From a bacterium (lineage in GTDB: Bacteria > Krumholzibacteriota > Krumholzibacteriia > LZORAL124-64-63): DNA of 58,309 bases. The position numbers and the translations under genes were made by a program. Shown piece by piece: positions 1,089-24,096 of this stretch. The notes beneath the pieces were generated by a model. It ran no database searches and was not told where the DNA came from. It was given only the letters and a program-made list of their open reading frames with translations. The stretch covers positions 1 through 58,309 of the forward strand of contig JANOEP010000032.1 in assembly GCA_031441465.1 (NCBI GenBank), given 5' to 3'. How positions within the stretch are numbered: the stretch's first letter is position 1; every line of letters starts with the position of its first letter.

Positions 1089-1394
1089 CTACATCCCCGG
1101 CAGCTTCAGGCCGCCGGTCAGGGCGCCCATCTCCTTCTCGACCATCTCGTCGATGCGGCGCACCGCCTCGTTGACCGCGCTCACGACCAGGTCCTGGAGG
1201 AACTCCACATCCTGCGGATCGACGGTCTCGGGCCGGATGGTCAGCGAGACGAGCTGGTGGCGGCCGTTCATCACGGCGACGACCTGGCCCCCGGCGACCT
1301 CGGCCGCAACCTCGCGCAGGGCGAGCTGCTCCTGTGTCTCCTGCATCTGCTTCTGCATCTGCTGGGCCTGCTTCATCAGGGCGCGCATGTCCAT
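1089..1394 (-). CDS. ybaB: YbaB/EbfC nucleoid-associated protein
   Basis: MDMRALMKQAQQMQ...DVEFLQDLVVSAVNEA...LTGGLKLPGM; AGGAG RBS upstream. Confidence 0.96.
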   Translation of the reverse strand: MDMRALMKQAQQMQKQMQETQEQLALREVAAEVAGGQVVAVMNGRHQLVSLTIRPETVDPQDVEFLQDLVVSAVNEAVRRIDEMVEKEMGALTGGLKLPGM

Positions 1395-20527: not shown

Positions 20528-21235
20528 CTAACGGAACAGGCTCTTGACCTGTCCCCAGCTGGCGTCCTCGTTGGGCGTGGGGTCGTAAGGGAAGATGACC
20601 TTCACGCCGAAGAGGTGGTGGTAGCCGGCGGGGACCGTGAAGAACGGGAACCAGGGCTCGGCGATGCCGGTGCCGGCGAAGGTCCAGTCGATCAGAGGGT
20701 AGTCCATCCCGACCAGCGTGCCCAGCTCACTGCCGCCGTTCATGTCGCAGGTGCCGATGCCGGCGCCCGAGTACTGGCCGAACCCGAAGGGATCGTTCAG
20801 GTCCATCGTCCAACCGTTGTCCACGGCGGCCTGCAACAGCATCGTGCCGTCGGTGAACGTGGCCGGGGTCGCGTAGTTGGCCGCCGTGCCGCCGACGATG
20901 GCGTTCTGATAGATCCGCAGGACACCCCCGTTGAACACGTAGTTCTTCGTCTGGGCGGTCCCGTTGAACACGTAGCTGTCGACGACCATGCCGGTGATGG
21001 CCACGGTGTACTGGTTGTTGGCGAAATCCAAGGGGATCGGGGTGGGCATGCTGACCGGCGGATTGGCGATCCCGTAGACGGTCATCACGGCACCGACCTG
21101 GCCGGTGCCGGGTGCGTACTTCGCGTAGCCTTCGAAAGTGAACTCGACCTGCCCCAGAGCGGGGACGGCCGCGCACAGGGCCAAAGCCAGGATCAGCCCG
21201 ATCATCCGGCTCCGGGTCAACTGCATTTTCTTCAT
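20528..21235 (-). CDS. Secreted beta-rich protein with C-terminal SWGQVKSLFR motif
   Basis: Sec signal peptide (VPALG|Q), strong RBS, conserved C-terminal motif. Confidence 0.9.
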   Translation of the reverse strand: MKKMQLTRSRMIGLILALALCAAVPALGQVEFTFEGYAKYAPGTGQVGAVMTVYGIANPPVSMPTPIPLDFANNQYTVAITGMVVDSYVFNGTAQTKNYVFNGGVLRIYQNAIVGGTAANYATPATFTDGTMLLQAAVDNGWTMDLNDPFGFGQYSGAGIGTCDMNGGSELGTLVGMDYPLIDWTFAGTGIAEPWFPFFTVPAGYHHLFGVKVIFPYDPTPNEDASWGQVKSLFR

Positions 21236-21254: not shown

Positions 21255-21950
21255 TTAACGGTACAAGTTCTTGACCCCGCCCCAAGACATGCTCTCGGTC
21301 GGGATCGTGCCGTCGTAGTAGATGTGGCCGTCGGTCTCCATGTCGTAGCCGTCGGGGATCGTGGCGTCGTTGAGCACGGTGCCCGCGAGCGTCAGACCGT
21401 TGGGATTCTGGAGTTCCTGGCCCAGCTCGGTGAAGTGGGTCCCGAGTTCGAACGTCAGCATCCCGACGTAGCTGCCGATGCCCGTAGTCGGGTTGTAGGT
21501 CAGCGAGAAGTTGCTGAAGACGCCGTGCAGGTACACGTCGCCGTCGCTGAAGGTGGCCATCGCCAGCGGGTCCGGGGGCGACACGCCGTAGTTCGGCAGC
21601 GTGTAACCGCCCGACAGGAACGCCTGCGCGTAGATGTCGATGGTGCCGCCAGTGTAGTAGATCCGGAAGCTGCCGTTGCCGAGATCCGCGGCCCCACCGG
21701 ACAACAGGTTGCCGATGACCCAGGTGTACTCGTAGTCAGCGGTGCTCCAGGTCAGCGGAGCGCTGATGTTGTCGACGAAGCCGACACCTGCCAGCACGTC
21801 GCCGGCGTTGCTCGGCGGGAAGCCGACCACGCCGGGATCGTTGTCCGACTCGAAGAGGTACCCGATGGTGTCCATGACATCGCTTTGGGCCCAGGCCGAC
21901 CCGGCGATGCACGCCAACACCAACACTCCCATCACCAACAGTTTCTTCAT
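21255..21950 (-). CDS. Secreted beta-rich protein with C-terminal SWGGVKNLYR motif (distant paralog of the adjacent gene)
   Basis: MKKLLV...AWA|Q signal; GGTIDIY and ATFSDG match GGVLRIY and ATFTDG of the neighbour. Confidence 0.9.
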   Translation of the reverse strand: MKKLLVMGVLVLACIAGSAWAQSDVMDTIGYLFESDNDPGVVGFPPSNAGDVLAGVGFVDNISAPLTWSTADYEYTWVIGNLLSGGAADLGNGSFRIYYTGGTIDIYAQAFLSGGYTLPNYGVSPPDPLAMATFSDGDVYLHGVFSNFSLTYNPTTGIGSYVGMLTFELGTHFTELGQELQNPNGLTLAGTVLNDATIPDGYDMETDGHIYYDGTIPTESMSWGGVKNLYR

Positions 21951-22213
21951 GGTGTCCCCCGATTCGTCTGCGGCTGCATGGTGCGGCCTTGATGATACGG
22001 ACGATCCTATTGGACTGCGCTCGATCAGTACGATCTCCCGGCGCCGTTCAGATTGAACGGCACCGTCGTACCGGGGCGTTGCGAGCACCGAATCATCGCG
22101 ACTCCGAGGAACCGCGACCCCTCCACTGTACAACCAACATCCTGCGGTATGCAATGACCGAATAGAAATAAATGCCGTCATCCCGCACATAATAATGACC
22201 ATTGTTCATAAAT

Positions 22214-22240
22214 ACGGAGACTCCGACAAGGAGTCTCCGT
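22214..22240 (-). terminator. Perfect 11-bp hairpin downstream of the histone gene
   Basis: ACGGAGACTCC-GACAA-GGAGTCTCCGT followed by an AT-rich tract on the minus strand. Confidence 0.6.
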
Positions 22241-22289
22241 GAAATCGGACTGAAATCGTGCCGTTGCAGTCCCTGGGGACTCCCGCCGG

Positions 22290-22451
22290 CTACAGATCCT
22301 GGGGCCGGACCGTCTTGCGGCCGTTGGCGATCGCACGCTGCTCGGCCTTCTTGATCAGTTCGTTGACCTTGGCGTCGAGGGCGTCGTAGAACTCGCCGGA
22401 AACGTTGCACTGCGTGACGGCTTCCTTCGTCTTGCTCTTGCTGATGATCAT
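22290..22451 (-). CDS. Bacterial histone-fold protein (DUF1931-like, 53 aa)
   Basis: MIISKSKTKEAVTQCNVSGEFYDALDAKVNELIKKAEQRAIANGRKTVRPQDL: long alpha2 helix, RKTV loop, RxTxxxxD clamp, truncated alpha3. Confidence 0.9.
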   Translation of the reverse strand: MIISKSKTKEAVTQCNVSGEFYDALDAKVNELIKKAEQRAIANGRKTVRPQDL

Positions 22452-22710
22452 GGTGGCCTCGATTCTCCTGAAGGGTGAAACCTCGGGCGACGGCGTCGCC
22501 CGGCGAAGGGATCGCATCGGGCAAGGTGGGATCTTGGCGAATCCGACCGGCGGTGTCAACGGGATTCGCCTCTCCGCATCCTCCGCGTCCAGGGCGGGAA
22601 GCGGCGGCATGGGGCGGGAACGCGGCACACAATGCCCTCGACAGTCGCGGGCGTCAAGGCTAAGTTTCGCCGACCAGCGCCGCCGCGACACGCACCCGCC
22701 AGGAGGAGCC

Positions 22711-24096
22711 ATGACCCCCGACAGCCGGCCCGCAGCGCGCCTCGACGAGTACCTGCGCGCCCACCGCGACCGCCACGTGTCGCAGCTCTGCGACTGGCTG
22801 CGCATCCCCAGCGTCAGTTCGCAGTCCGACCACGACGCGGACACGCGCCGCGCCGCGGCGTTCATCGCCGACGAGTTGCGCGGCCTCGGCCTGCACGTCG
22901 AGGTGATCGCCACCGGAGGCCATCCGCTGGTCTACGCCGAGACCGACCAGCGCGCCGACCGGCGCACCCTGCTCTTCTACGGCCACTACGACGTTCAGCC
23001 GACCGACCCCCTCGAGCAGTGGATCTCCCCCCCCTTCGAACCCGCGGTCCGCGACGGCATCATCTACGCGCGCGGCGCCAGCGACGACAAGGGGCAGCTC
23101 TACACCCACGTCAAGGCGTTGGAGGCCTGGCTCGCCACGGACGAACCGCTGCCGGTGAACGTGAAGTTCATCATCGAGGGCGAAGAGGAGTGCGGCGGCC
23201 CGGCCGTCTACCGTTATGTCGAACAGCACGCCGACAAGTTGGCCTGCGACGCGGTGGTGATCAGCGACACCAGCCTCTACGACGAGAAGACCCCGGCGAT
23301 CTGCTACAGCCTGCGCGGGCTGAGCTTCATGCAGATCGACGTCGCGGGCCCCCGCGCCGACCTCCACTCCGGCAGCTTCGGCGGCGTGGTGCAAAACCCC
23401 GGCAACGCCCTGGCGGCCATCGTCGCGGGTCTCAAGGACCGCGACGGCCGCGTGCTGATCCCCGGCTTCTACGACGCCGTGCGGGAACTCGACGATCAGG
23501 AGCGCCGCGCCTTCGCCTCACTGGGCTTCACCGACGAGGTCCTGCTGCGCGACACCGGCTCGCCGTCGCCCTGCGGCGAACGGGGCTACACCACGCTCGA
23601 GCGCATGTGGGCGCGCCCGACCTGCGACGTCAACGGCATGTGGAGCGGCTACCAGGGCGAGGGCGCCAAGACCATCATCCCGGCGCAAGCCGGCGCGAAG
23701 GTCAGCATGCGGCTGGTGCCCGACCAGGACCCCGCGGAGATCGCCCGTCTTTTCGAGCGGCACGTGAAATCGACCGCGCCCGAGGGCGTCGACGTCAAGG
23801 TCACCTACCTCCACGGCGCGGCGCCGGTGATGGTGCCGCGCGCATCGGCGATGATGAGCGCGGGTGCCCGCGCCATGGCCCGCGGCTTCGGCCGCGAACC
23901 CGTGTTCATCCGCGAGGGCGGCTCGATCCCCATCGTGGGAACATTCCAGGCGTGCCTGAAGTCGCCCGTGCTGCTGCTGGGCTACGGCCTGCCGAACGAC
24001 AACATCCACTCCCCGAACGAGAAGTTTCACCTCGAGAACTTCTTCAACGGCATCGCCACCACCGTGGCCCTGTTCAGCGAAGCCGCCGGGGCCTGA
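22711..24096 (+). CDS. M20-family dipeptidase
   Basis: YGHYDVQP, ARGASDDKGQ, EGEEE, DLHSG, GGSIP, HSPNE. Confidence 0.94.
   Translation: MTPDSRPAARLDEYLRAHRDRHVSQLCDWLRIPSVSSQSDHDADTRRAAAFIADELRGLGLHVEVIATGGHPLVYAETDQRADRRTLLFYGHYDVQPTDPLEQWISPPFEPAVRDGIIYARGASDDKGQLYTHVKALEAWLATDEPLPVNVKFIIEGEEECGGPAVYRYVEQHADKLACDAVVISDTSLYDEKTPAICYSLRGLSFMQIDVAGPRADLHSGSFGGVVQNPGNALAAIVAGLKDRDGRVLIPGFYDAVRELDDQERRAFASLGFTDEVLLRDTGSPSPCGERGYTTLERMWARPTCDVNGMWSGYQGEGAKTIIPAQAGAKVSMRLVPDQDPAEIARLFERHVKSTAPEGVDVKVTYLHGAAPVMVPRASAMMSAGARAMARGFGREPVFIREGGSIPIVGTFQACLKSPVLLLGYGLPNDNIHSPNEKFHLENFFNGIATTVALFSEAAGA

What the first reader, a model, noticed from the sequence alone, without database searches (positions are those of the whole stretch)
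22290..22451. Stand-alone bacterial histone
Seen: 53-aa basic protein hidden at the end of a longer ORF, with NVSGEFYDAL...KAEQRAIANGRKTVRPQDL, its own RBS and a downstream hairpin. Established: this matches the short alpha3-truncated prokaryotic histones (DUF1931 / face-to-face type, related to Bdellovibrio and Leptospira histones), which only a minority of bacteria have. Inference: histone-based chromatin in this lineage, alongside YbaB.
Basis: partly seen in the sequence, partly recalled or inferred. Interest (0 to 1): 0.7.

Follow-up and report, generated by a model that had tools for sequence, protein, structure and literature searches.

The report
Face-to-face bacterial histone gene, Krumholzibacteriota
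This small gene is real and encodes a bacterial histone of the already described ring-forming "face-to-face" type, here in an uncultured Krumholzibacteriota bacterium that also keeps the usual bacterial DNA-packaging proteins, so it is a correct catch of a new member of a known family.

Summary
Window 22290-22451, minus strand, is a 53-codon gene. It has its own ribosome-binding site and an 11-bp terminator hairpin, and it lies at the end of a spurious 207-codon frame. The protein is an alpha3-truncated histone of the face-to-face (FtF) type. Its best solved relative is HTkC of Thermococcus (profile E 1.1e-18), then Leptospira HLp and Bdellovibrio HBb. The AlphaFold2 model (pLDDT 90.9) superposes on these three with TM 0.84-0.93. 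It carries the FtF tetramer residues R39 and N43, the R45/T47/D52 motif and K9. A four-copy model places the dimer-dimer contact on these residues (0.91; best control 0.00), though this may reflect solved relatives. The gene is single-copy, under purifying selection, and was found in 131 of 201 genomes of the phylum sample (79 of 86 in its own family). HU/IHF genes occur in all 201, and YbaB lies in this window, so the histone adds to the usual nucleoid proteins. A conserved promoter-like block precedes the gene in 60 of 60 relatives. DNA binding, tetramer formation and abundance are inferred. No paper found links histones to this phylum, but databases already label relatives DUF1931 or histone. 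Verdict: new member of a known kind, modest interest.

The parts
22290..22451 (-). Histone gene: 53 codons plus TAG stop. The model gives alpha1 at residues 5-11, loop L1 at 12-18, alpha2 at 19-42, and loop L2 plus the truncated alpha3 at 43-53.
   Evidence: sequence; PDB relatives; model and fold search; purifying selection.
22457..22469 (-). Shine-Dalgarno region: AGGAG at 22469-22465 and GAGG at 22460-22457, 13 and 5 nt before the ATG.
   Evidence: Relatives have GGAGG 7 nt before an ATG three codons further upstream, giving the 56-aa form. The window's genus has lost that ATG and starts at the internal ATG.
22629..22668 (-). Conserved promoter-like block: GAAACTTAGC, then CTTGACG (-35-like, 22657-22652), a 17-nt spacer containing TGTCGAG, then CATTGT (-10-like, 22634-22629).
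   Evidence: The motif TTGAC[AG]-N17-[CG]AT[CT]GT is present in 60 of 60 related loci with at least 200 nt upstream. Consensus. The full block occurs once in the 3.49-Mb genome. The tool's own sigma-70 scan did not flag it (0 sites). Its function as a promoter is inferred.
22531..22559 (-). Second promoter-like site, seen in all 7 rows of the window's genus, with a similar TTGACA site in L015 and in 3 of 61 loci: TTGACA-N17-CAAGAT. It lies inside an inverted repeat, GGCGAATCC (22570-22562) and GGATTCGCC (22544-22536).
   Evidence: Folded as a hairpin in leaders of same-genus loci L020 and L023. Weak evidence, inference only.
22206..22240 (-). Terminator-like hairpin: 11-bp stem, 5-nt loop, -20.8 kcal/mol, followed by ATTTATGA.
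   Evidence: Conserved in the genus with a compensatory stem change. Not listed by the scan, because the T-run is too short.

Best explanation
The gene encodes a face-to-face (FtF) alpha3-truncated histone. Two chains form a head-to-tail histone-fold dimer. Two dimers then close into a ring-shaped tetramer through the end of alpha2, loop L2 and the C-terminus (R39, N43, R45, C-terminal L53). DNA is bound without sequence preference through lysines and serine of alpha1 (K5, S6, K7, K9) and the L1/L2 loops (G19, K46, T47), and is wrapped around the ring, as shown for Leptospira HLp (about 60 bp) and Thermococcus HTkC.

The gene is transcribed as a single unit from its own conserved promoter, through a leader of roughly 70-170 nt, to its own terminator. 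In this bacterium it acts as one nucleoid-associated protein next to HU/IHF and YbaB.

Shown here: the gene, its conservation, the fold prediction and the motifs. Inferred: the tetramer in solution, DNA wrapping, abundance and a role in chromatin.
For: Sequence relatives. A single-sequence search of PDB gives HTkC 9F2C at E 3.9e-8, HBb at 2.4e-3 and HLp at 0.017. The family profile gives HTkC 1.1e-18, HLp 3.9e-14, HBb about 7e-12 and HmvA 4.6e-6.

Fold. The AlphaFold2 model has mean pLDDT 90.9, with helices at 5-11 and 19-42 and no long alpha3. The nine best Foldseek rows are HTkC, HBb and HLp chains (TM by query 0.84-0.93, 34-43% identity), and the next rows are other histone-fold proteins.

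Motifs. In the 68-sequence alignment N43, T47 and D52 are invariant, and K9, R39, R45 and L53 are kept in at least 90%. By the HMMER alignments, R39 corresponds to HTkC R45, whose R45A mutant is a dimer (preprint 10.64898/2025.12.06.692711, section 5), and to HLp R49. N43 corresponds to HLp N53, R45 to R55 and D52 to D62 (RD clamp). S6, K7 and K9 correspond to the HLp DNA contacts S14, K15 and K17, and G19 and T47 to G29 and T57 (PMC12701072 sections 7 and 9).

Tetramer. The four-copy ESMFold2 model scores 0.91 against a best of 3 controls of 0.00. That mark was reached by 20 of 30 proteins solved as pairs of one chain and by 1 of 23 solved as single chains. The runs agree in at least 98% of contacts and the partner pLDDT is at least 93. 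The dimer-dimer contacts are residues 38-39, 42-43, 45, 49 and 51-52.

Conservation. One copy in the genome. Found in 131 of 201 genomes of the phylum sample, 84 of 125 good-quality ones, and 79 of 86 in the gene's own family. pN/pS is 0.26.

Expression signals. RBS, conserved promoter block in 60 of 60 loci, and terminator. In four RNA-library runs from four studies, contigs at least 90% alike cover the gene, for example 22287-22570 with 7 differences and 22389-22539 with 1.
Against: No curated family threshold is met: DUF1931 20.7 bits against 21.8, CBFD_NFYB_HMF 15.4 against 21.4, NCBIfam archaea_histone 14.6 against 50.

Foldseek found 0 matches at E <= 0.001; the best is 1.1e-3 for this short query.

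The tetramer pass may be recall of the solved FtF tetramers 9F2C and 9QT0. The job also used four copies and my own alignment, unlike the calibration.

The equivalent of HLp K21 is T13 here.

The tool's scans flagged neither a sigma-70 promoter nor this terminator.

The RNA evidence consists of contigs of relatives in libraries chosen for holding part of this stretch. It cannot show the level, the strand or even transcription.

HU/IHF genes are present in all 201 genomes sampled, so the histone need not be a major chromatin component.

There are no binding, oligomer or abundance data for any member of this clade.
Confidence: 0.75

Rival explanations
1. It is an HBb-like 'bacterial dimer' histone. 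It stays a dimer and bends DNA, or coats it end-on, rather than wrapping it around a tetramer.
For: HBb chains superpose as well as the FtF chains (TM 0.84-0.90), and the profile E-value to HBb is about 7e-12. The oligomeric state was not measured. The tetramer prediction can be recall of solved relatives.
Against: HBb-type histones lack the R and N of the FtF interface (PMC11390915 passage). In the alignment, HBb has S and D at those positions. Here R39 is kept in at least 90% and N43 is invariant in 68 sequences. HTkC and HLp score better than HBb. The predicted dimer-dimer contacts fall on exactly these residues.
Confidence: 0.12
2. It has a histone fold but is not a general chromatin protein. 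It could be a specific regulator or a protein-protein adaptor, in the way NF-Y or TAF-like histone folds have other roles.
For: Schwab 2024 warns that not all prokaryotic histone-fold proteins need be genome organisers. HU/IHF and YbaB are all present. The gene has a gene-specific conserved upstream block with an imperfect inverted repeat, which suggests regulation.
Against: The DNA-contact and RD-clamp residues of HLp and HTkC are conserved. There is no extra domain and no conserved partner gene beyond the genus. The studied FtF members are abundant, and are essential or important for growth.
Confidence: 0.1
3. The real product is longer: the 207-aa frame, or the 75-aa form that starts at MRSLRR and was called on two related contigs.
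For: Gene callers produced 75-aa forms (P0002, P0003). The frame is open up to 22913.
Against: Most relatives are 53 or 56 aa: 22 and 101 of the 268 proteins held. The Shine-Dalgarno sequence sits directly before the 53/56-aa start. The upstream stretch is not alignable as protein outside the genus and contains indels. The 207-aa frame overlaps the M20 peptidase gene on the other strand.
Confidence: 0.03

Closest known systems
HTkC, FtF histone of Thermococcus kodakarensis (PDB 9F2C; PMC11390915; preprint 10.64898/2025.12.06.692711)
   Same: Best sequence match (E 3.9e-8 single sequence, 1.1e-18 profile; 42-43% identity; TM 0.85-0.87). Singlet alpha3-truncated fold. The interface arginine is shared (R39 = R45), as are the RKT...D motif and a C-terminus directly after the motif.
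   Different: HTkC is archaeal, thermostable and coexists with nucleosomal histones, whereas this protein coexists with HU/IHF and YbaB. HTkC has a 4-residue longer L1 and E instead of N at the position of N43.
HLp, FtF histone of Leptospira perolatii (PDB 9QT0-9QT2; PMC12701072), and its L. interrogans relative
   Same: A bacterial FtF tetramer. R49, N53, R55 and D62 correspond to R39, N43, R45 and D52. The DNA contacts S14, K15, K17, G29 and T57 are kept. TM 0.91-0.93.
   Different: 37% identity, and weaker in sequence searches than HTkC. Leptospira lacks HU and Dps, whereas this genome has three HU/IHF genes. HLp K21 is T13 here. HLp has a longer N-terminus.
HBb / Bd0055 of Bdellovibrio bacteriovorus (PDB 8FVX, 8CMP, 9EZZ; PMC10627809)
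   Same: A short bacterial singlet histone with truncated alpha3 and the RKTV motif. TM 0.84-0.90.
   Different: HBb is a dimer that bends DNA and lacks the interface R and N (S and D in the alignment). This protein has both.
DUF1931 (PF09123) pseudodimeric histones, such as Aquifex AQ328
   Same: Distant histone-fold similarity. Databases use this name for relatives of this gene.
   Different: DUF1931 proteins have two fused folds, form a separate cluster and lack the usual DNA-binding residues. Here the hit is below threshold and covers only 34 of 138 positions.

Membership tests
Alpha3-truncated prokaryotic histones (Schwab 2024) | Histone fold with a short alpha2 and an alpha3 of only 3-4 residues | tested here: met
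   The model has helices at 5-11 and 19-42, and the chain ends 11 residues after alpha2. The top structural matches are HTkC, HBb and HLp.
Alpha3-truncated prokaryotic histones (Schwab 2024) | RxTxxxxD motif (RD clamp) in loop L2 | tested here: met
   R45-K-T47-V-R-P-Q-D52. T47 and D52 are invariant and R45 is kept in at least 90% of 68 sequences.
Face-to-face (FtF) histones | Interface residues R48 and N52 of the FtF logo (HTkC R45; HLp R49 and N53) | tested here: met
   R39 (at least 90%) and N43 (invariant), placed by the HMMER alignments to 9F2C and 9QT0. The 2-residue offset between the HLp chain and native numbering is my inference.
Face-to-face (FtF) histones | Confidently predicted closed tetramer (interface error below 10 A in Schwab 2024) | tested here: met
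   Four copies score 0.91 against a best control of 0.00. Dimer-dimer contacts with expected error under 8 A are at 38-39, 42-43, 45, 49 and 51-52. This may be recall of 9F2C and 9QT0.
Face-to-face (FtF) histones | Conserved lysine on alpha1 (K16 of the logo; K11 in D4GZE0) | tested here: met
   K9 is kept in at least 90% of sequences. The same 2-residue offset that maps R39, N43, R45, T47 and D52 onto D4GZE0 R41, N45, R47, T49 and D54 places K9 at K11. That offset is inferred, not aligned.
Face-to-face (FtF) histones | Tetramer in solution and DNA wrapping | not testable with these tools
   Needs SEC-MALS, EMSA, TPM and MNase assays on purified protein.
Bacterial dimer histones (HBb type) | Absence of the FtF interface R and N, and no confident oligomer above a dimer | tested here: not met
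   R39 and N43 are present, and a tetramer is predicted.
DUF1931 (PF09123) | Score above the Pfam gathering threshold over a pseudodimeric (two-fold) domain | tested here: not met
   20.7 bits against 21.8, on profile positions 20-53 of 138. Of the 68 relatives, 36 match at E <= 0.01 with a best E of 7.9e-5.
Nucleosomal archaeal histones (PF00808 / NF043032) | Score above threshold, and a full alpha3 helix | tested here: not met
   15.4 bits against 21.4 and 14.6 against 50. No alpha3 helix in the model.

The most novel reading that the evidence does not exclude
Krumholzibacteriota would be a further bacterial phylum with histone-containing chromatin. In this reading an FtF histone is a vertically inherited core nucleoid protein in most families, working together with HU/IHF rather than replacing it as in Leptospira. 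Its dosage would be set by a gene-specific, near-invariant promoter/operator block (CTTGACA-N8-TGTCGAG-GCGATTGTG) and a long leader.
Probability: 0.35. Interest if true: 0.5.

Novelty: new member of a known kind. Interest (0 to 1): 0.3.

Why it matters
Bacterial histones were characterised only from 2023 to 2025, in Bdellovibrio and Leptospira. Published surveys name Spirochaetota, Planctomycetota, Bdellovibrionota and Myxococcota as the main FtF-bearing bacterial phyla.

This gene shows an FtF histone kept under purifying selection across most families sampled in another, wholly uncultured phylum. There it sits next to a full HU/IHF and YbaB set. That gives a natural case for asking how a wrapping histone and bending nucleoid proteins share one bacterial chromosome.

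The conserved upstream block offers a handle on how histone expression is controlled. The protein itself is small and easy to test in vitro.

Tried and rejected
1. Profile-based locus search with alignment A1 failed because the alignment has no stretch conserved enough. I repeated it with the single protein.

2. A tree of 47 rows (window, 12 Krumholzibacteriota loci, 10 loci from other taxa, 24 unnamed representatives) is mostly unresolved: 28 of 43 inner branches are open and the bootstrap had not settled. The Krumholzibacteriota rows group at 85/95 together with one MAG labelled Planctomycetaceae and two unnamed proteins. No sister group is supported, so nothing can be said about an archaeal or bacterial origin.

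3. Gene neighbourhood. The M20 peptidase and the two exported-protein genes are shared only within the genus. One weaker match to the second exported protein (45% identity over 100 residues) appears in L015; the other four loci of other genera had none, so I see no operon partner. Two of my four query translations in that script were out of frame, so this rests on DNA-level conservation and is rough.

4. The Rfam search of 22100-22750 gave 0 matches.

5. RNAalifold on the first 45 nt of 24 predicted leaders gave 0 consensus pairs. The 5' stem-loops seen in single folds are therefore not supported as a conserved structure.

6. A regulon search for the upstream block in the window's genome found the full block only at this gene.

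7. RNA runs. Depth from contigs cannot rank genes, so no claim about expression level is made.

8. Searches of this scan's earlier notes by sequence and by place returned nothing.

9. Literature. No paper in the library holds both 'Krumholzibacteri' and 'histone'. The term is absent from the readable supplements of PMC11390915 (the main supplementary PDF was too large and one PDF had no text) and of PMC12701072. In PMC10627809 it occurs once, in the list of genomes screened and not in the histone table (files 6, 7 and 9 were not searched).

Full report
**The gene.** On the minus strand of window 22290-22451 there is an ATG-to-TAG frame of 53 codons. It is the tail of a mechanical 207-codon ORF that starts at a GTG at 22913. 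That longer frame is not credible. It overlaps the divergently transcribed M20 peptidase gene at 22711-24096 (Peptidase_M20 E 2.3e-34). Relatives are almost all 53 or 56 aa: 22 and 101 of the 268 proteins held. The stretch upstream of the ATG is alignable only within the genus and contains indels.

AGGAG lies 13 nt and GAGG 5 nt before the ATG. In most other genera a GGAGG serves an ATG three codons further upstream (MAD/E-M/L-IISK, 56 aa). In some of them the codon matching our ATG is CTG. So the window's genus lost the upstream ATG and uses the internal one.

Forty-nine nt after the stop there is an 11-bp hairpin (22240-22214, -20.8 kcal/mol) followed by ATTTATGA. The consensus scan did not list it because the T-run falls one short. 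All six same-genus loci keep it, with a compensatory A:T to G:C change in the stem and a longer T-run.

Across the window plus 60 related loci, variable columns by codon position are 18, 16 and 51 of 53, and mean pN/pS is 0.26. L022, which has a 1-nt deletion, was left out of that count. The gene is real and selected as a protein.

**What the protein is.** It is 5.9 kDa with pI 9.3. Curated libraries give only sub-threshold hits: DUF1931 at 20.7 bits against 21.8, on 34 of 138 positions; CBFD_NFYB_HMF at 15.4 against 21.4; NCBIfam archaea_histone at 14.6 against 50. No library here holds a model of the FtF family.

Against solved structures the single sequence finds HTkC of Thermococcus kodakarensis (9F2C, E 3.9e-8), then HBb of Bdellovibrio (2.4e-3), HLp of Leptospira perolatii (0.017) and HmvA (0.14). 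A profile of 68 relatives gives 1.1e-18, about 7e-12, 3.9e-14 and 4.6e-6 for the same four.

AlphaFold2 with that alignment gives mean pLDDT 90.9, helices at 5-11 and 19-42, and no long third helix. Foldseek against PDB returns no row at E <= 0.001; the best is 1.1e-3 for this short query. Its nine best rows are HTkC, HBb and HLp chains (TM 0.84-0.93, 34-43% identity), and the next rows are other histone-fold proteins.

**Which kind of histone.** Schwab et al. 2024 (PMC11390915, passages read) split alpha3-truncated histones into several categories. FtF histones are defined by a predicted closed tetramer, with conserved R48 and N52 at the dimer-dimer contact, the RxTxxxxD motif and a lysine on alpha1. 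'Bacterial dimers' such as HBb lack that R and N.

In my 68-sequence alignment N43, T47 and D52 are invariant, and K9, R39, R45 and L53 are kept in at least 90%. By the HMMER alignments, R39 is HTkC R45. The R45A mutant of HTkC is a dimer, and the arginine salt-bridges the C-terminal carboxylate of the opposing dimer (preprint 10.64898/2025.12.06.692711, abstract and section 5). R39, N43 and R45 are HLp R49, N53 and R55, the hydrogen-bond network of the HLp tetramer, and D52 is the RD-clamp D62 (PMC12701072, section 7). HBb has S and D at the two interface positions.

A four-copy ESMFold2 job scored 0.91 against a best of 3 controls of 0.00. That mark was reached by 20 of 30 proteins solved as pairs of one chain and by 1 of 23 solved as single chains. 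The runs agreed in at least 98% of contacts and the partner pLDDT was at least 93. The scored chain touched one chain over the whole handshake dimer and a second chain only through residues 38-39, 42-43, 45, 49 and 51-52. That is the FtF interface. Because like tetramers are solved, the pass shows likeness and may be recall. The job also differed from the calibration in using four copies and my own alignment.

The HLp residues that contact DNA (A13, S14, K15, K17, K21, T27, G29, T56, T57; section 9) correspond here to K5, S6, K7, K9, T13, V17, G19, K46 and T47. Five are identical, two gain a positive charge, and K21 is lost. This mapping assumes a 2-residue offset between PDB-chain and native HLp numbering. 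I inferred that offset from the R49/N53/R55/D62 matches.

**Organism and distribution.** The window's genome is a 3.49-Mb, 74-contig assembly, 96.8% complete, with one copy of the gene. Named relatives are mostly 'Candidatus Krumholzibacteriia/-ota' MAGs. Some carry other submitter labels such as Fibrobacteraceae, Gemmatimonas, Latescibacterota or 'bacterium'. A locus of the same GTDB family as the window is a record named Ca. Krumholzibacteriota.

In a sample of 201 genomes of the phylum, the protein query matches 131. Among good-quality genomes the figure is 84 of 125. By family: f1 (the window's own) 79/86, f3 6/7, f5 19/23, f6 8/9, f8 11/12, f4 7/42 (weak matches only), f2 0/12, f7 0/8, f9 0/1. 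No match in an incomplete genome does not show absence.

Outside the phylum, the nearest loci found with the back-translated peptide patterns of this one protein (a search for close relatives only) are a 'Planctomycetaceae' MAG (66%), two genes of the haloarchaeon Halegenticoccus soli (58-60%), DPANN and Asgard archaea, and a Bacteriovoracaceae MAG (48%). A tree cannot resolve their order.

In the clustered protein library, 255 representatives match at E <= 1e-3. Of the 150 best, 27 are doublets.

**Other nucleoid proteins.** The genome has three HU/IHF-family genes and YbaB at window 1107-1376. HU/IHF is found in 201 of 201 genomes of the phylum sample, typically with three matches. Unlike Leptospira, which lacks HU and Dps (PMC12701072 section 6), this lineage adds a histone to the ordinary set.

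**Expression signals.** All 60 related loci with at least 200 nt upstream (of 61 examined) carry TTGAC[AG]-N17-[CG]AT[CT]GT 107-234 nt before the start. The 60-locus consensus is aAAacTAc.CTTGACa-N8-TGTCGAGGCGATTGTG. In the window it lies at 22629-22668.

The block reads as a sigma-70-like -35 and -10 with a weak -10, and the tool's own scan did not flag it. The 'spacer' half TGTCGAG is as conserved as the -35 and is an imperfect inverted repeat of CTTGACA, which could be an operator. The strict motif occurs 3 times in the genome (0.64 expected), and the full block occurs only here.

If transcription starts about 7 nt after the -10, leaders are 72-199 nt with a median of 135; in the window the leader would be about 170 nt. 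No Rfam family and no consensus structure was found in the leader.

Four RNA-library runs from four studies hold contigs at least 90% alike over the gene. This is compatible with transcription in relatives but cannot show it or its level.

**How it most likely works, and comparison with what is known.** The protein probably forms a ring-shaped tetramer of two histone-fold dimers that wraps DNA non-specifically. HLp wraps about 60 bp and reorganises the E. coli nucleoid (abstract). [quoted passage not shown] The fold, motifs and predicted interface are shown here. The oligomer, binding and abundance are inferred.

The family, its structure and its bacterial occurrence are published, and databases already call relatives 'DUF1931' or 'histone H3/H4'. 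I found no paper that links histones to this phylum. The one Krumholzibacterium genome in Hocher 2023 appears only in the list of genomes screened. The main supplement of Schwab 2024, which has the phylum plots, could not be opened.

Earlier follow-ups in this scan reached the same kind of verdict for FtF histones in other phyla. Those are leads, not evidence.

**Verdict.** A correct observation and a largely correct interpretation. This is a new member of a known kind, of modest interest.

Noticed in passing
window 22629-22668 (-); loci L019-L079: A block AAAacTA-N2-CTTGACa-N8-TGTCGAGGCGATTGTG is present upstream of the histone gene in 60 of 60 related loci. In the window's genome the full block occurs only here. 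The halves CTTGACA and TGTCGAG form an imperfect inverted repeat, so the block could be an operator as well as a promoter.
   Followed up: partly
phylum sample, G001-G200: Family f2, where the histone was not found (0 of 12 genomes), shows 3-6 (mostly 5) HU/IHF-family matches per genome. Family f1, which carries the histone, typically shows 3. This might be a trade-off in nucleoid proteins, but kin are not independent and it was not tested.
   Followed up: no
proteins P0123, P0124, P0128 and others: 27 of the 150 best representatives are 97-175 aa (most 114-130) with two histone stretches. Each half of the three whose sequences were read (P0123, P0124, P0128) has its own N-[GNS]-R-K-T motif. 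These are tandem (pseudodimeric) relatives of this FtF-like singlet. Their organisms are unknown.
   Followed up: no
G016, G018, G042, G056, G067, G099, G135 (family f6): These genomes have a second, weaker histone match (41-47% identity) in frames of 110-220 aa. It may be a paralogue or a doublet.
   Followed up: no
L010 / L022 (same-genus genome G137): A 1-nt deletion near the 3' end of the histone gene replaces RPQDL-stop with RPRICS... in an 83%-complete MAG. It is probably an assembly error.
   Followed up: no
window 20528-21235 (-) and 21255-21950 (-): Two adjacent paralogous genes for proteins with signal-peptide-like N-termini and no Pfam family lie downstream of the histone gene. They are conserved within the genus.
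   Followed up: partly
window 22536-22570 (-): In the window's genus the leader holds an inverted repeat, GGCGAATCC...GGATTCGCC, that encloses a second TTGACA-N17-CAAGAT site.
   Followed up: partly
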